Of a DNA stretch of 64,000 nt, positions 31,903 to 39,450 are shown in pieces. This DNA is from Phyllosticta citribraziliensis (lineage: Eukaryota): positions 62,001 through 126,000 of the forward strand of contig NW_027117353.1 in the NCBI RefSeq assembly GCF_038025025.1, written 5' to 3'. Positions within the stretch are counted from its first letter, which is position 1. The number at the start of each line of letters is the position of its first letter. Under the pieces are notes generated by a model. The model saw only the letters and a program-made list of their open reading frames with translations. It searched no databases and was not told the DNA's origin. The position numbers and the translations under genes are program-made.

Positions 31903-33415
31903 TTGTGTCATCTTTGCGGCAAAACACCTGTCTCGGCCGACATCGGACAACTCACGCTCTCCTGAACACATCACATGCCTTTGCAGAAAAATGGTACAGC
32001 AAAGTATGACTGATTTCTAGTTACACGGACCCATTGCTCTCGTTTTCTCTGTTCGAAATGCAGCATCTCCACGGCGTTTTCTTGTCTGGCAGTGGCTCCA
32101 CTGGTCGGTATGCGTTCATTTCAAAAGATACGGAACGAGGCAACCTTCTTTCACTTTTTCTCTCAACTATAGACTTGCTTAACGGGGACCATGGCGGTGG
32201 CGTACGTCGACGGAGTCTGGACGCAAAGCTAGGCTGAACCGACCGGGCTGGTTGAAGCAACAGGAAAGCACAAGGGCGGAAAGGGAGGGGTCGGTGGTGT
32301 ATTCTTTTCCGTACTCTTTTTTGTCTCGCGCGGCAGGGTGGCGCGACACGGCGTCAATGTAGACACGGACGAACTGGCATTGGGTTCAATTGTTTACGGT
32401 AAACGGTCGGTCGGTCCTTTTGGTTCTTTGGACTTTGGGGCAGGAGGACAGCGTTCCCTTCTGACTTTGGAGCGGCGGAACAGGTGGGGATTCGACTTTG
32501 GTGTAGATATTTTTGTACGATCATGAGAGAGCTGTGTGGGGCTGAGCAGCGGCGTTCCTGGGAACAAACTGCTCGAGCACTTGGAAACGACAGTACAAAA
32601 TCACGACCTGATTCGATCCAACAACCGGGGCGGGGGAGCGCGATTGCTATATCTCGGTTCGATCTCTCTGAAACTGACCCCACCGTGGAGATCGCACCAC
32701 AGATGAAGGGAAACAGAGCAGCAAGGGGCTACAACCGCAGGAGAACCGGGTAAGTGTTCAAGGGGTGCTGCGAATCCAGGAGGCCTAACTTTGTCGAGCT
32801 AACCGCATGGGGCAACTTCTAGACAAGCGATGAGGCTAGTTCAACGTCGTCTCTGAGTACGTCGTTGCATGTGCGGCCTCTTTGCGCAATGGTGTCCCAA
32901 AGACTTTGCGGCCGTTGGAGAGAATGTTGGGACTGCAATGGGTGGTGTTGATGAGGCAAGTTTTCGTTGTGCCTGCCGCCAGCAATTTTGAAGATGCTGA
33001 AGTCTTCAGGTCTCTCGTGCGATTGATGTGTGCGTCTTGAATTCGTCGCTCCACCACCTCCAAAGGCTTGCTGGCAGATGATGCAACCATGAGGAACCCA
33101 CTCAACAAGGGAGATGTCACATCATGGCGGGCTTCTAATAATGGAAGGGATTAGTTTGTCGGTCGACAGACTTAGTCCTGCATCGTCTCTAGACCATTGA
33201 CGAACGATTCCTCTCCGCGTCCGCCGATACCATCACCGCCCTGGTGGGGAAATGACGAGATGGTCTGAAGCGGCGTGGGCCGGACCAGATCGCAAAGACG
33301 AGGCAAAATCTCAATGTGGATTAAAAACTCGATTCAATCCTATTCTAAGGGAGGCTTCCAAATCCCCGCTCAACCTCTGACTGCCGCAGCTGCTGACAGT
33401 GCTGTGTCCGTCATC

Positions 33416-36400
33416 ATGGTTGCCAAAACCGCCTTCGCCAGCCTTCTCTTGCTGGCCACGGCTGCAGGGTCGCCAGCCCCTAAAGCCGGTCACAAAACCT
33501 CCCTCAGGCTCCAGCAACCAGTTCCTTACGAAATCAACCATGAGGAGAGGCTTCCGATGAAGAGCTTCCTCGATTACCCTTGCTACTTTCTCCACATGGG
33601 AGATTTGAACGGGTTCACTATTCCTCTCATTCGGACTGCCCTCGAGGCTGGGCAGAAACACGAGGCCATCATCGAAGGATGGACCAGCCACAGCGGCGGG
33701 TCATGCCAGTTTGCACTGTCCCCCGATTTCCCTCCAAGGCTCGACTCCGAGTTCAAAGTCATCACGTCCATTGAGGGAAATTGTCCCGGCAAGGTCGACA
33801 ACAAGTTGGACCCTGTACCGTTCTACATCCCCGAAAACGCTGCCAATGGCAACTACACGTTGGCTTGGACGTGGTTTCCGCAGGTTCCGAGCACCGGCAG
33901 ACCAGAAATGTGGATGGAGTGTGCGCCCGTTGAAATCGTCGAGGGCAAACCAAAGAAGAAGAAGCCCAAAAAGGCGGGCAAGGGATGGCTGAAGAAGCTG
34001 CCGACCATGTTCATTGGAAACGTCAATGTTGGAAGCTTCGACGTCGACAAAGAATCCAAGGCGGACTACCAAAACGCCTTGAATGGCAAGTACGGACCCA
34101 AGGGCAGGTGGAACAGGATTGCTTGCATCACCAAGAACGACACGGAGCTTGCGTTCCCATATCCGGGCGATCAGAAAATCAACAACGTTGAATCGGGCAT
34201 CATCAACGAAGTGGAGAGGCAAGCCAAGAGAATGAAAAGGTACCCCGTCGGCGATGGCTGCTGGGTCAAGGACAAGCCTGTCAAGGGACTCGACAAGAGT
34301 TGGGGTTACGGCAAAAGGGATGTGGACGAGTCTTTGGACGAGTCCGACGACGAGGTAAGTTGGCCTCCCCTTTCGTCCGAGCTGCCTTTGCTGATCTCAT
34401 TGCACAGGACGAGGTCAACCTCTTCGAACGTCGGAGCGTGTCAGGTGGAACGACCACGCGGCTCTTTACGTCGTCTTACGACCTAGCTCCGGGTGAGACA
34501 TTCGGTCCTTCGCCGCCGCAGCAGACTGTCACTGTCTCCGCAGACCAATTCTCAAGATATCCGGTCCTGCCTACTACATTCGTTATTGAGCCCGGATCTT
34601 CAGTCCGTGGACAGGTGGACTACAGAACCGCGACCGTTGAATATGATGGGCCCAGCACATTCAGTTTCTATATGTCAATCAGCGAAAGTTTTCCCAGAAC
34701 ATTGGCTGTTGCGACGCCTCGAGCGGCGTTGAGTACCCCCGCTCCATCGGCAAGCTCTACTCCATCAGAAAGCTCTACTCCATCAGAAAGCTCTACTCCA
34801 TCAGCAAGCTCTACTCCATCAGCGAGCTCTACTCCATCAGCGAGCTCTACTCCATCGGAAAGCTCTACTCCATCGGCGAGCTCTACTCCATCGGCAAGCT
34901 CTACTCCATCGGCAAGCTCTACTCCATCGGCGAGCACCACTCCATCGGCGAGCACCACTCCATCGGCGAGCACCACTCCATCGGCGAGCACCACTCCATC
35001 GGCGAGCACCACTCCATCGGAATCCACCACCCCGTCTGGTGGAACGACCACGACGCAGCTCTCTACGAGATTTTACAACCCAACTCCGGGTAATGCATAT
35101 GTTCCTGCTTCGCCACAGACTGTCACTATCTCCTCGGACCAATACTCACGATTTCGTACCCTGCCCACTACATTCGTTCTTGTGTCCGGAACTCCAGTCC
35201 GTGGTGCAATGTTGGATCGTAAAACCCTGACCTTTGAATATGATGGGCCCACCACATTCGGCTTTTATGTGTCAGATGTAAATGCTGGAAACTATTACTC
35301 TGTGGGAAGCACATTGGCTATTGCGACGCCTCGAGCACTGTCCAGTACTCCCTCTTCATCTGCCACCACGACTGCGGAGTCCAATTCCAATTCGCTCACA
35401 CAACCGACAACCACGACTCCATCGGCAAGCACCACTGAATCGACGACCACCACCCCGTCAACGTCCCTGTCTACAAAGAAATACTATGCAAGTGGCACTG
35501 AGCGTTTACCTTCGCCGGACGTGCAGACTATCGTGGTCACCTCAGACCCACTGTTCCGTATTTCGCCAACTACACTCGTTATTAGCCCCGGGGGCCCAGG
35601 TCTTGGGGCACCATTAAGTCATACCGTGACTATTGCACACGATGAGTCCAGGACGTTCAGATTTTTTGCCTGGGATGATTCTTATGGCCCTCAAACACCC
35701 TTCCTTGCGACACCTCGAGCTGTCTCAACTACCCCTACTACATCGCCTTCCTCTGCGACGACGACGACGGATTCCATCTCGAACTCGGTGACCCAGCCAA
35801 CAATTACCACTTCCTCTTCAGTTTCCTCGTCAAGAGGCCTCTCCACAAGATTTTACTACCCAACAAGGGGTGGCCTTCTTACGCCGGGTGTCGAAACGGT
35901 CACAGTCTTTGAGGACCCGAGGTATCCTAGTTTGCCAACCTCGTTCGTCATTTCCCCTGATTATTCCTACTCGGGCGCAACGCAAGTGGTTCCGACCTTG
36001 ACTCTTGCGTATAATGGGGTCCAAACATACGGCCTCCTCATCTCAGACTCAAGGGGACCTGGCACAGCAACACGCGCGATTTTGACACCTTACACGTCAA
36101 GCACGTCAAGTACTCCAAGCACGTCAAGTACCCCAAGCTCGTCAAGTACCCCAAGCTCGTCAAGTACCCCAAGCTCGTCAAGTACCCCATCCTCGTCAAG
36201 TACCCCATCCTCGTCCTCTGCCACTACGACGACGGTCTCGAATTCGAACTCGGTGACACAACCGTCCATCATCATCAATCCTCCATCAACCGTCTCAGCT
36301 CCAACTCAAAGCGCGTCGTCTGGGACGAGTCCGAGCCAGCCCACCACTTCTCCGCCCACGACAACGCAGACGGCGTCCGCGACCTCAGGGAGTCCCACTC

Positions 36401-38958
36401 AGCCCTCGTCATCAACAACGGTCCTGATCACAAGATACTATTATGCCTCCCTTGGAGCCGACATGCAGACGAGAACAATCACAATAGATCGATCCTACAG
36501 CATCACGCCAAGCATATTTGTTGTCGCGCCCACTGACTCCACGTTGCCGGGTACTCCCCTGACAACAATTACGGCACAATACGACGGAATCACTACCCAA
36601 AGCGTCTTCCTGTATGGCACAACGTCTTTCGGTATCATTCAAAGGGCCCTCCCATCAGCCTACAGCTTCGTCCCAAGAGCGCCTCAAGCGGCCCTCACCT
36701 CTCAGGATTATACATTGCTCATAGAAACGCCTCGACCAACATCAAGCGCACCAAGTTCCACGCCTACTGGGACAGCCTTTACTACTTTTGTCACTTCGTC
36801 GACATTGGTCATTACCAGCGCCTCTACGGACACGGATGCTGTGTACAACAGCTACTCAACTTCGATGACCACTTACTTGACTTCGACGCCTGTAAGCGGT
36901 TCTCAGACGAGTTCAAGCCAGCCTTCCTCTCCTTCAGCAACGACATCGGCAGGGCAGACGACTTCCGCGCCAAGTACTTCCTCTCCTAGCGTGACAACTA
37001 GGGGTTACTTCTTCCCCCCTGGATCTGGAGTGGCAGCCGCCATAAACACGATCACGGTCACCTATTCACGCAATTCGCCGCCAACGAAGACCTACGTCCT
37101 CACTCCTCTTACAGAGACGCCGGCCAGTTCTCCGTCTTCACTCTCTTACGCCAGATATACGATAACTGCAGAGTACAATGGTCCTACGTCCCAAACCATT
37201 GTGCTGGCTCCCGCGGGCGTCACGGCATTTGCCCAGATATACACGTATGTTGTCGAGGTTCCTTATTCCACAGCAAGTGGGTCCTCGGGAACAGACTTTA
37301 TCACATCTTCGCTTACAAGCCGGGCAACGACCAGTTCGACCGTGTCCCCGTCACTGTCCTCGAGCAGCACGAGCCCCTCGTCTGCCCCTCCAACGTCAAG
37401 TCCTAGCGCAAGTTCTAGTCCTTCGAGCAGCACGACGCCCTCATCTAGTACTCCAACGACAAGTTCTGGGACAAGCTCTAGCCCTTCGAGCAGCACGACC
37501 CCCTCGTCTGTCCCTCCCACGACAAGTTCCGGAGCAAGTTCCAGTTCCTCGAGTTCAGCGTCGGCAAGCTCGACGCCCACACCAAGTTCCTCGTCGACGA
37601 GCCTTCTCACGCGGTTCTTCAATCAGGGCTTCTTTGGCGCCTTGGCGGATGCGCACTCTGCCACGGCTCTTTCAAGATACGGGCTCACACCGAGCTCTTT
37701 CTTCCTTGTTCCTACATCAGTGCCAGTCAGGTCAACCGGTATCAGCGCAATCATCACGGCTGCTTATGACGGCATTGGCACCCGGAGCCTTCTGCTTCTC
37801 GACGAGAACCCGGCGGCTTCGACATACACGGTCCTCGTTGAAACACCATCGCAAACACCAGCGAGTACGACGGCTTCGGATGCAGTAAGTTCAAGCACTC
37901 CTAGCTCATCGCTAACACCGTCGAGCCCGAGCTCTGTGAGCTCCAGCTCGACGTCGTCTGTGGTGGTCTCGAGCAGTCCGTCCTCGGGTCTCATTTCAAC
38001 CTCCTTGAGCTCAATCCCGATATCGGTGGTTACTTCTGGCAGTCCCATCACGCTGTCGCCTCCTACTACGACTACTCCTTCAAGCAGCCCCAGTCCTTCG
38101 TCCAGCAGTCCAAGCTCGGTCTCTCCAGACACGAGTTCTCGCAGATGTACCTTCTGTTCGCCTGGATCCAGCTCGACCTCGGACAATACGAACTTGCGTA
38201 CGCATACTCACTTGCATACCGGGACGTATGCACATACGATAACGCACTCCCACTTCTCTCCAAGCTCGTCCTCAACGCCGTCGCCGGTGCCATCGACGCA
38301 GACGCCACCATCTCCTGACAGCAGCTCGCCGTCGTCATCGACCCCGGCCCCTCCCACGACGACAATCCTTTCGACCTTGTCCACCACCACGCGTATACGC
38401 ACCCGGACGCGGACCCGCACGCCGTCGAGCTCCAGCCCAACACCGACGCCCAGCTCCACCACGCCAACGCCGACGCCCTCGCCCTCGCCCTCGCCCTCGC
38501 CCGCGCGCCGCTGCACGCCCGAAAACAACGGCCAGCTCGTCTGCAAAGCAAACGACAAGACCGTATACGCGCTCTGCGACAACGGGCGCGTGCGCTGGAA
38601 GCCGGTCGCTCCAGGCACGCAGTGCGTCAACAACGCCATCGTGGCCGCGAGGGACGACAACGCCGAGGGCAACAAGGTCATCGGATCGGCCTCGACGCCC
38701 ACGCCCACACCCACGCCCTTTGCGAGCGGCCCGTCAACCAATGGGAATACCGTCGTGACGGAGCCGCAGTCCAGCGCGGCGCCCGTGCCGACGACGGGGG
38801 CGCAGAGCTCGTCCTGTGCGTCTGACGGCAAGCTGTATTGTAACGGCGAGGCGCTGTTTGGGCTCTGCAATTGGGGCACCGTTACGTGGCAGAGTGTTGC
38901 GCCGGGCACCAAGTGCGCTGATGGTGCCATCACGTATGGAGATAGCCAGGCGTATTAG
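33416..38958 (+). CDS. Large secreted modular protein (~1829 aa): AA11 LPMO-like domain, 7 repeated beta-rich modules with S/T linkers, and 2 X278/CBM19-like modules; intron 34355-34407
   Basis: Signal peptide MVAKTAFASLLLLATAAG; AA11-like motifs PVPY, DYPC, HSGGSCQFALS, FKVITSIEGNCP, GNYTLAWTWF and EMWMECAP. The intron GTAAGT...GCTGAT...CAG joins ORF 33275-34486 to ORF 34300-38958 in frame. The C-terminal modules follow the pattern C..G...C.....C..G...W..VAPGT.C. Confidence 0.8.
34744..35031 (+). repeat. Coding minisatellite, ~16 x 18 bp, encoding (PS[A/E]S[S/T]T)n
   Basis: Units of ccatc(a/g)g(c/a)(a/g)agc(tct/acc)act are seen directly. Confidence 0.92.
36106..36213 (+). repeat. Coding minisatellite, ~6 x 18 bp, encoding (SSTPSS)n
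   Basis: Units of tcaagtacccca(agc/tcc)tcg. Confidence 0.85.
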
Positions 38959-39450
38959 GAGGAAGCGCCAGGAATACACACCCCCCTCTTTCCCCCCTTG
39001 TTTCTGGATTTGATTCGCATTTGACATAGATTGATAGTCATGTCCTTCAATAAGAGTGAAGTGGCATTGGCGGGATTTCTTGTCGACTGAATGACTGTCG
39101 GTCGGCAAAGTCTCCGCGTCGTAGCGTAGTCGGCAAAAGCTAGTTTAATAGAACACATATTTTCTGTGTCTTGCTCCAAGCTTGAGTGTGAATGCGATGT
39201 TTATACAACGTGCCCTACGACAGATCAGACATACAATAATGACTGGCCATTCTACATATATGCTTACATACAGATTTAGCGTCGGACACAAATCCTCTTG
39301 ACACGCGGAAAGATCAGGACGTTGTTGCAACAGCCGTCGTATCGTGGCACATGAGTTTCGAGCTGGAATCGTTCTTGCGTCTTTTCCTCTTCTTTTCGGT
39401 CGTGTCACCCACCACCCGATCTACACAGAAAAGCATCTTTTGCAAGTTCT

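What the first reader, a model, noticed from the sequence alone, without database searches (positions are those of the whole stretch)
34453..37850. Seven copies of an unrecognised Cys-free ~80-100-aa module on a mucin-like stalk
Seen: seven diverged repeats start near 34453, 35061, 35470, 35841, 36428, 36994 and 37605. They share [ST]TR-aromatic…TxT[VI]…P.[TS]FV[IL].P…T.T..Y[DN]G..T…[LV].[AE]TP (for example TVEYDGPSTF, TFEYDGPTTF, TLAYNGVQTY, TAQYDGITTQ, TAEYNGPTSQ, TAAYDGIGTR) and are separated by Ser/Thr/Pro linkers. A linker SSATTT..S.SNS[LV]TQP follows repeats 2, 3 and 4, which shows tandem duplication of module plus linker. Inference: a beads-on-a-string adhesin or lectin array of possibly undescribed small beta-domains inserted between the AA11 and X278 parts, loosely reminiscent of flocculin-type repeats.
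Basis: partly seen in the sequence, partly recalled or inferred. Interest (0 to 1): 0.8.

Follow-up and report, generated by a model that had tools for sequence, protein, structure and literature searches.

The report
Adhesin repeats inside disabled chitin enzyme
A fungal gene for a secreted chitin-oxidising enzyme has lost its copper-binding residues and gained seven repeats related to those of yeast adhesion proteins, so it probably makes a long, sticky surface protein rather than an enzyme.

Summary
The seven Cys-free 81-102-aa modules are real. Each scores above all 500 of its shuffles against a profile of the other six. They lie in the linker of a spliced 1,829-aa secreted protein: signal peptide, AA11-LPMO-like head, Ser/Thr/Pro stalk, two X278-type domains, no GPI tail.

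The module is not wholly unrecognised. It is a diverged copy of an ~80-aa two-part repeat found here only in Botryosphaeriales (Phyllosticta, Diplodia, Macrophomina). Seven to eight such repeats sit in a 6,885-aa protein of the same genome, which has 87 Pfam Candida_ALS (PF05792) matches. The module's C-terminal half is an Als-type repeat by transitive homology. None of the seven hits PF05792 directly, and the N-terminal half is unassigned.

The AA11 head has Ser for His1 and Trp for the axial Tyr, so it is probably non-catalytic. In a related organism, modules 1-3 differ three times more than the rest of the gene.

Best reading: a chimeric, chitin-tethered surface adhesin or matrix protein formed by inserting adhesin repeats into a duplicated LPMO gene. 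Function is untested and the fold model is weak (pLDDT 59). The scan had not reported this on other DNA.

The parts
33416..33469 (+). ATG and signal peptide (aa 1-18), followed by an SPxP-type pro-segment
   Evidence: hydropathy; cleavage site judged by eye, no SignalP available
33491..34270 (+). AA11-LPMO-like head. Six Cys, the second His (H92) and Glu164 are kept; the His1 position is Ser29 and the axial Tyr position is Trp166
   Evidence: phmmer to PDB 9exj E=3e-26 and 4mah E=1e-22; alignment with two intact paralogues of this genome
34313..34434 (+). KR (aa 300-301), acidic spacer and RR (aa 321-322) just before module 1; candidate Kex2 processing junction, spans the intron
   Evidence: sequence; processing is inferred
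34355..34407 (+). 53-nt GT..AG intron, phase 0
   Evidence: sequence; skipped in a contig of run X1
34453..34722 (+). module M1 (90 aa)
34742..35020 (+). 18-nt minisatellite, 15.5 copies, encoding a hexapeptide S/T/P linker
35062..35334 (+). module M2 (91 aa)
35343..35416 (+). repeated linker, copy 1
   Evidence: D5
35470..35718 (+). module M3 (83 aa), most diverged
35736..35809 (+). repeated linker, copy 2
   Evidence: D5
35842..36090 (+). module M4 (83 aa); probably absent in related organism B
   Evidence: joint 35793-36259 and zero depth at 35954-36164 in run X3
36201..36274 (+). repeated linker, copy 3
   Evidence: D5
36430..36735 (+). module M5 (102 aa, long loop insertion); 45% identical to a module of the giant C5 protein
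36994..37263 (+). module M6 (90 aa)
37606..37848 (+). module M7 (81 aa); its C-terminal half is the closest to single Als-type repeats
37849..38505 (+). 219-aa S/T/P stalk (72% S/T/P)
38506..38643 (+). first four-Cys X278-type domain
   Evidence: 46% identical over 37 aa to the C-terminal domain of the intact AA11 paralogue on C7; the name X278 comes from the published AA11 architecture, not from a profile
38815..38958 (+). second X278-type domain and stop codon; no hydrophobic GPI tail
   Evidence: 55% identical over 53 aa to the C7 paralogue; weak CBM_19 hit E=0.027, below cut-off; mean hydropathy of the last 25 aa -0.21

Best explanation
A duplicated AA11-linker-X278 LPMO gene took up an ~80-aa two-part repeat from a giant Als-repeat surface protein, and amplified it in its linker to seven copies, partly as module-plus-linker units. 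The homology is shown; direction and mechanism of the transfer are inferred. The head lost its copper site: the residue changes are shown, loss of activity is inferred. The product is a secreted, heavily O-glycosylated rod with about 730 aa of linkers and stalk. It has no GPI anchor and most likely rebinds to wall chitin through two C-terminal X278 domains (inferred). Each module is a small beta-sheet unit, an Als-type three-strand repeat plus a second three-strand element. It is taken to work like Als tandem repeats: low-specificity, avidity-driven sticking to hydrophobic surfaces or to matrix, tuned by copy number (inferred by homology). The dead head either acts as a non-catalytic binding tip or is cut off at the dibasic junction, which would expose the fast-evolving modules M1-M4 at the outer end. 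Odds: origin from the Als-type repeat family about 0.85; non-catalytic head about 0.85; adhesive role of the modules about 0.5.
For: Homology holds in both directions. The window profile finds 7 of 7 double modules in one part of the C5 protein (13.4-36.6 bits) and an eighth in another (21.8), against a shuffled maximum of 7.0. A profile of the C5 modules alone puts 5 of 7 window modules above the null maximum of 4.6. A Diplodia-only profile puts 4 of 7 above 4.9. M7 alone, searched against the whole genome, returns the C5 protein right after its own gene (40% identity, E=0.018). 7 of 7 C5 modules match PF05792 (best E=2e-7). The C5 ORF has 87 PF05792 matches, 23 over the cut-off. Window C-halves against the single repeats score 27.1, with a column-shuffled maximum of 13.3 (0 of 150). 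Both models give beta-strands in two groups. The head changes are seen; His-brace or axial-Tyr mutants of the AA11 CWR-1 are inactive on chitin (PMC9550227, passages). The intron is spliced in run X1. Als tandem repeats are three-stranded sheets that mediate adhesion to plastic and fibronectin (PMC10144551 and PMC6308950, passages). Bad-1 is a GPI-less adhesin that rebinds through a C-terminal chitin-binding domain (PMC6023273, passages). Als repeats recombined onto a foreign head are known in yeasts (LELG_04272; PMC8712946, passages). Window modules form one side of a branch at 98/93 in the 76-row tree.
Against: 0 of 7 window modules and 0 of 14 half-modules hit PF05792 directly. M2 and M3 do not exceed the null with either outside profile. 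The N-terminal half is only weakly like an Als repeat (2-4 of 150 shuffles reach it), and the window's two halves are not significantly alike (12 of 150). The models are poor (pLDDT 47 and 59), and the better one is of a relative's module. The window modules are less hydrophobic than the C5 and Diplodia modules (KD -0.04 against 0.19-0.29) and richer in aromatics and Arg, so they may no longer work by the hydrophobic effect. Against the P. paracitricarpa orthologue the modules keep their length, but are no more identical (68-74%) than three alignable linkers (63-73%). A 32-row tree puts M6 outside the group with weak support, though one clade is not rejected (p-AU 0.51). Expression rests on one run whose RNA status is a guess. 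No functional data exist.
Confidence: 0.55

Rival explanations
1. Spacer only: the modules are stiffening stalk elements that hold the AA11-like head away from a chitin anchor; binding is done only by the head and the X278 domains.
For: Repeats of adhesins are also described as presenting the binding domain (PMC6308950). The X278 domains are far better conserved (87-91%) than the modules (68-74%). M4 seems dispensable in organism B. The best, non-significant structural rows include rod-forming three-strand domains (Z 2.8-2.9).
Against: Dibasic sites could detach the head from the stalk. Modules keep their length while linkers do not. The modules gained aromatic and Arg residues.
Confidence: 0.2
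2. Lectin array: after insertion the modules evolved glycan-binding faces and give multivalent binding to fungal or plant polysaccharides.
For: Aromatic content is 12.3% against 7.6-7.9%, and Arg 5.6% against 1.3-2.4%, in the C5 and Diplodia modules. The host gene is carbohydrate-active by descent.
Against: No lectin or CBM match by sequence. There is a single Trp in all seven modules. The invariant positions are Thr and Pro, which look structural.
Confidence: 0.12
3. Recognition protein in the manner of Neurospora CWR-1: a non-catalytic AA11 head and polymorphic outer modules label self or host at cell contact.
For: CWR-1 is AA11-linker-X278, and its catalysis is not needed for allorecognition (PMC9550227). 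M1-M3 differ by 16.4% (170/1039) from organism B, against 5.2% (213/4060) for the rest of the gene.
Against: None of 7 DUF3433 matches in the genome lies on this contig (that cwr-2 carries DUF3433 is recalled). The neighbours are Hobbit/BLTP2, DUF202 and a DEAD helicase. The head is not the variable part. The two runs labelled organism A are 99+% identical to the window. The fast divergence could come from comparing paralogous repeat copies.
Confidence: 0.08
4. The head is still a copper-binding or atypical oxidative enzyme (using His26 and His92) on a long tether, and the modules are incidental.
For: H92, E164 and six Cys are kept, and there is a His at position 26. Single His mutants of CWR-1 still bound copper.
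Against: His26 is not at the predicted mature N-terminus, and the brace needs His1 (PMC12186267, passages). The axial Tyr is Trp. At least three paralogues with His1 and the axial Tyr exist in the genome.
Confidence: 0.05

Closest known systems
Candida Als tandem repeat (Pfam Candida_ALS, PF05792)
   Same: The C-terminal half of each module is homologous through the C5, Diplodia and Macrophomina modules; Thr-rich, Cys-free, predicted three strands, ends in a hydrophobic-E/T-P motif
   Different: The unit is 81-102 aa with an extra N-terminal three-strand element and spacer; copies are separated by 41-114-aa linkers instead of being head-to-tail 36-mers; window copies fall below Pfam detection; no NT-Als domain and no GPI anchor
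Giant Als-repeat protein family of Botryosphaeriales (G000:C5 6,885-aa ORF; KAK8174362, OJD37430, KAL1648380, EKG09806; all unnamed hypothetical proteins)
   Same: Same two-part module, 3-23 copies per protein
   Different: The three full-length relatives compared share an N-terminal cap (40-44% identity of two of them to C5) and none has an AA11 or X278 part; the window copies are more diverged and richer in aromatics and Arg
AA11 LPMOs with linker and X278 (AoAA11 4MAH, AfAA11B 9EXJ, Neurospora CWR-1)
   Same: Signal peptide, AA11 fold by sequence, S/T linker, C-terminal X278-type domain
   Different: His1 and axial Tyr replaced; about 1,370-aa middle region with seven modules; two X278 domains; acidic dibasic junction; no linked DUF3433 gene
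Hybrid Als-repeat proteins of yeasts (LELG_04272; Spathaspora 80/89-aa repeats) and Blastomyces Bad-1
   Same: Als-type repeats recombined onto a foreign head; long repeat units; Bad-1 shows GPI-less anchoring by a C-terminal chitin binder
   Different: None of these, in the passages read, involves an LPMO-derived head; Bad-1 repeats are Cys/Trp-rich 24-mers, unlike these modules

Membership tests
Candida_ALS repeat (PF05792) | Direct score at or above the Pfam cut-off (25 bits) | tested here: not met
   0 of 7 modules, 0 of 14 halves and no hit for whole exon 2
Candida_ALS repeat (PF05792) | Homology of the C-terminal half to PF05792-positive repeats | tested here: met
   HHalign probability 87.6, score 27.1 against a shuffled maximum of 13.3; 7 of 7 C5 modules hit PF05792
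Candida_ALS repeat (PF05792) | Head-to-tail unit of about 36 aa | tested here: not met
   Units are 81-102 aa with long linkers; the N-terminal half is only weakly similar
Candida_ALS repeat (PF05792) | Three-stranded antiparallel beta-sheet | tested here: inconclusive
   Three strands in the C-half of both models, but pLDDT 47 and 59; no solved match
Als adhesin protein family | NT-Als adhesive domain (defining per PMC8712946) | tested here: not met
   The head is AA11-like; no Candida_ALS_N hit
Als adhesin protein family | C-terminal GPI signal | tested here: not met
   Ends in an X278-type domain; last 25 aa KD -0.21, best 19-aa window 1.58; simple hydropathy only
AA11 LPMO | Sequence homology to AA11 catalytic domains | tested here: met
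   E=3e-26 to 9exj and 1e-22 to 4mah
AA11 LPMO | His1 at the mature N-terminus | tested here: not met
   Ser29 aligns with His1; His26 lies 8 residues into the predicted mature chain (cleavage judged by eye)
AA11 LPMO | Second brace His and second-sphere Glu | tested here: met
   H92 and E164 invariant with the paralogues
AA11 LPMO | Axial Tyr (Y141 of AfAA11B) | tested here: not met
   Trp166
AA11 LPMO | Copper binding and oxidative chitin cleavage | not testable with these tools
   needs biochemistry
Flocculin repeat (PF00624) | Match to the Flo1-type repeat profile | tested here: inconclusive
   No match in the genome, but the control genomes did not ring either; no hit on the modules
cwr-1/cwr-2 allorecognition locus | Linked DUF3433 membrane-protein gene (domain label recalled) | tested here: not met
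   7 matches on C6, C9, C11 and C17, none on C16
cwr-1/cwr-2 allorecognition locus | Allelic haplogroups under balancing selection | not testable with these tools
   needs population genomes

The most novel reading that the evidence does not exclude
This is a natural pseudo-LPMO adhesin: an AA11 that gave up its copper site and became the tip, or cleavable cap, of a chitin-tethered Als-type repeat rod. It forms part of the preformed spore or appressorial adhesive of Phyllosticta. Its outer modules diversify in sequence and number with host surface, and the two-part module is an undescribed fold unit made of two fused three-strand repeats.
Probability: 0.18. Interest if true: 0.75.

Novelty: new variant of a known kind. 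Interest (0 to 1): 0.5.

Why it matters
Molecularly defined adhesins of filamentous plant-associated fungi are few (PMC6023273, passages). Phyllosticta spores are known to carry preformed adhesives (PMC11671520, passage), and my searches found no protein named for this. The finding supplies two concrete candidates: this chimera and a 6,885-aa Als-repeat protein. It extends Als-type repeats to a Dothideomycete order in an undescribed two-part form. It shows an LPMO gene apparently repurposed by losing its active site and gaining adhesin repeats, a natural counterpart to the catalysis-independent role of CWR-1. It also warns that counts of AA11 enzymes in these genomes can include non-catalytic members.

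Tried and rejected
Pfam on single modules and halves gave only sub-threshold, unrelated hits (DUF6935, Wza_C, DUF3869, TLP1_add_C, NtrZ).

PDB sequence searches with two module profiles found nothing under E=0.05, only antibody-chain noise.

Of 5 hits among 1.84 billion representatives, 3 were dropped as summed weak matches in unrelated repeat proteins: cadherin/Ig-like P0003, TbpB-like P0005 and Kazal P0007.

ESM Atlas gave no usable hit for M2 or for a relative's modules.

Foldseek against the PDB gave 0 matches at E<=0.001, and the wide VIA search a best Z of 2.9. With a pLDDT-59 model this shows neither a new fold nor a known one.

The metagenome scan with M7 confirmed 0 of 604 pattern matches. 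A search for longer proteins with the AA11-like head found 0 of 1,789 candidates, which is weak evidence; I could not test whether the His1 and Tyr changes are shared by orthologues. The unspliced read-through product is not in the protein collection.

Aligning whole relatives to single modules failed.

The two-copy complex prediction for M7 returned 'no answer', which is no evidence either way.

No RNA holder was on record in the run search; RNA status of X1 is a guess, backed only by its skipped introns.

The idea that each module is an exact tandem pair of Als repeats was tested. It is shown for the C-half and only weak for the N-half, so it is not claimed.

The cwr-1/cwr-2 locus reading was rejected for lack of a linked DUF3433 gene.

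Third-position GC is lower in the modules (0.41-0.62) than in the head (0.71) and tail (0.81), and near the C5 gene (0.54). This fits an insertion but is confounded by amino-acid make-up and was given little weight.

Look-ups of earlier scan findings by sequence, place, relatives and words returned nothing on this gene or module.
Full report
**Gene structure.** The finding lies in exon 2 of a fungal gene on the + strand: ATG at 33416, exon 1 to 34354 (313 aa), a 53-nt GT..AG intron at 34355-34407, and exon 2 from 34408 to the stop at 38958 (1,516 aa); 1,829 aa in all. A contig of run X1, 99+% identical to the window, skips exactly this intron, and X1 contigs cover the coding region apart from short gaps at simple repeats. 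This is one study, and its RNA status is the tool's guess. Named relatives are from Phyllosticta, Diplodia and Macrophomina, so the organism is taken to be a Phyllosticta-type fungus; I do not name a species.

**Observation.** In leave-one-out HMM tests 7 of 7 beat the best of 500 shuffles. 18 of 21 pairs were reached by at most 6 of 1000 shuffles, the exceptions being M3-M6, M3-M7 and M4-M6. No further copy exists in the window. The linker after M2, M3 and M4 is a three-copy DNA repeat with spacings of 393 and 465, which supports duplication of module plus linker.

**What the module is.** Pfam gives nothing significant for the modules or their halves. A profile search of 1.84 billion representatives gave 5 hits. 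Three were summed weak matches in unrelated repeat proteins and were dropped; two were real multi-copy carriers, from Phyllosticta citrichinensis and Diplodia corticola. Further searches added the 3' part of the orthologue in P. paracitricarpa (1 of 8,000 candidates) and proteins of D. intermedia and Macrophomina (3 of 7,999 including the query). Four of these five proteins carry PF05792 (Candida_ALS) hits; the Diplodia corticola and P. citrichinensis ones are above the cut-off, the other two below, and the P. paracitricarpa one has none. In the Diplodia and Macrophomina proteins the best stretch falls on the C-terminal half of a module.

**A donor candidate in the same genome.** Searching the own genome with PF05792 gave 90 matches at E<=1. 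87 of them lie in one 6,885-aa ORF on contig C5, 23 over the cut-off. This ORF shares its N-terminal cap with the Diplodia and Macrophomina proteins (40-44% identity) and contains about 110 repeat ends. Among them are seven two-part modules in one stretch and an eighth elsewhere. All 7 scanned C5 modules match PF05792; none of the 7 window modules does.

**Controls on the homology.** The window profile scores the C5 modules at 13.4-36.6 bits, against at most 7.0 in 1,600 local shuffles. A profile of C5 modules alone lifts 5 of 7 window modules above the null maximum, and a Diplodia-only profile lifts 4 of 7; M2 and M3 pass neither. M7 alone against the whole genome returns the C5 protein next after its own gene. 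By profile-profile alignment the window's C-halves match the single Als-type repeats (27.1 against a shuffled maximum of 13.3), and the N-halves match the relatives' N-halves (19.8 against 12.6). The N-half resembles an Als repeat only weakly (2-4 of 150 shuffles reach it), and the window's two halves are not significantly alike (12 of 150). So the module is an Als-type repeat preceded by a second, unassigned element.

**Structure.** AlphaFold on M2 with 7 rows gave pLDDT 47. On a relative's module with 12 rows it gave pLDDT 59 and six strands in two groups of three. Neither Foldseek nor the wide VIA search found a significant solved match; this is inconclusive.

**History.** In a 76-row tree the window modules and their orthologues form one side of a branch (98/93, bootstrap not fully settled). 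In a 32-row subset (one in three Diplodia corticola and Macrophomina modules, none from D. intermedia) M6 falls outside with weak support, and one clade is not rejected (p-AU 0.51). M1-M4 form a well-supported subgroup in both trees. M5 is 45% identical to a C5 module, more than to any sibling. The genome has intact AA11 paralogues, one with the plain AA11-linker-X278 layout. The simplest history is duplication of such a gene, uptake of one module from the Als-repeat gene family, and local amplification; direction is inferred, not shown.

**Variation between organisms.** In run X3 (organism B), the pieces over M1-M3 differ at 170 of 1,039 positions (16.4%) against 213 of 4,060 (5.2%) for the head and M5-to-end. 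A joint skips 465 bases between linker copies 2 and 3, with no depth over most of M4. The joint has only 38 letters on its short side, and divergence beyond 20% could mimic the gap. 509 letters replace 130 before M1. Run X5 shows a shallow joint lacking M3 and M4 (side 30). Copy number therefore probably varies. Against P. paracitricarpa, M5-M7 keep their length (57/59, 90/91, 81/81) at 68-74% identity; three alignable linkers change length at 63-73%; the X278 domains are 87-91% identical.

**The flanks.** The head is AA11-like (E=3e-26 to AfAA11B) with six Cys, H92 and E164 kept. Ser29 stands at His1 and Trp166 at the axial Tyr (residue roles from PMC12186267, passages). In Neurospora CWR-1, mutation of the brace His or axial Tyr abolishes activity on chitin, while allorecognition persists (PMC9550227, abstract and passages). 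A KR-acidic-RR junction separates head from M1 and may be cut by Kex2 (inference from established fungal processing). Two four-Cys domains at the C-terminus match the X278-type domain of the C7 paralogue; X278 is only hypothesised to bind chitin. There is no GPI-like tail.

**Mechanism.** Most likely (0.55) this is a secreted O-glycosylated rod, tethered to wall chitin by the X278 pair, whose modules stick by avidity as Als tandem repeats do. Those repeats are described as three-stranded sheets mediating hydrophobic adhesion to plastic and fibronectin (PMC10144551, PMC6308950, PMC9306254; passages). Bad-1 gives precedent for GPI-less rebinding (PMC6023273, passages). Against this, the window modules are less hydrophobic and richer in aromatics and Arg than their relatives. 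Rivals are an inert spacer (0.2), a lectin array (0.12), CWR-like recognition (0.08; no linked DUF3433 gene) and a still-active head (0.05).

**Membership and novelty.** The protein is not an Als family member (no NT-Als, no GPI; definition from PMC8712946, passages) and not a canonical AA11 LPMO. The module fails PF05792 directly but descends from it in part. Recombination of Als repeats onto foreign heads, and 80-89-aa derived repeats, are known in yeasts, so this is a new variant of a known kind. I found no description of this module, of the chimera, or of a brace-less AA11 in nine literature searches (search listings). Term searches in two Phyllosticta genome papers (PMC12506662, PMC6612112; passages only) also found none. 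PMC8231555, PMC8615602 and PMC11671520 were seen as passages. The library lacks most subscription journals, and I opened no supplements; CAZyme tables there may list this gene simply as AA11. A brace-less AA9 subgroup is recalled from memory and was not checked. The scan's earlier notes hold nothing on this gene.

**Verdict.** Their identity is largely resolved as an Als-derived, Botryosphaeriales-restricted module, and the more striking feature is their fusion with a probably dead LPMO. Interest 0.5.

Noticed in passing
G000:C5:677559-698213 (- strand; L037-L039): Single 6,885-aa ORF with signal peptide, a cap shared with Diplodia and Macrophomina proteins, about 110 Als-type repeat ends, 7-8 double modules and a Cys-rich C-terminal region (26 Cys in the last 450 aa), with no obvious GPI tail. 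A strong adhesin candidate in its own right.
   Followed up: partly
G000:C11:419898-422060 (- strand; L040): About 690-aa secreted protein with roughly ten single Als-type repeats and a hydrophobic, GPI-like C-terminus.
   Followed up: no
window 32956-33009: Probable GC-AG intron upstream of the gene. It lies on a 14.6-kb X1 contig that extends about 12.8 kb further upstream, which suggests a long 5' UTR, read-through or merged transcripts with the Hobbit/BLTP2 gene.
   Followed up: partly
window 39214-39266: Minus-strand intron (CT..AC) in the presumed 3' UTR of the DUF202 neighbour; the same contig runs into the last 440 coding bases of this gene, so the convergent 3' ends may overlap.
   Followed up: no
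window 34432 (run X5) and 34356-34485 (run X3): In related organisms other sequence follows the dibasic junction, about 380 extra bases before M1 in X3; possibly an additional module or segment.
   Followed up: no
L002 (G000:C7), L003 (C1), L004 (C9), L005 (C8): Four further AA11-like genes; three show His1 and the axial Tyr intact, the C8 one was seen only in part. The C7 gene is a single-exon AA11-linker-X278.
   Followed up: partly
P0008 (KAK8204506): The public P. paracitricarpa model starts inside M5 and seems to read part of the stalk in another frame, so the orthologue is probably mis-annotated or mis-assembled.
   Followed up: no
window 33950-34000 and 38143-38260: A Lys-rich loop in the AA11-like head where the paralogues have a short loop, and a CxxC followed by a His/Thr-rich stretch in the distal stalk.
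   Followed up: no
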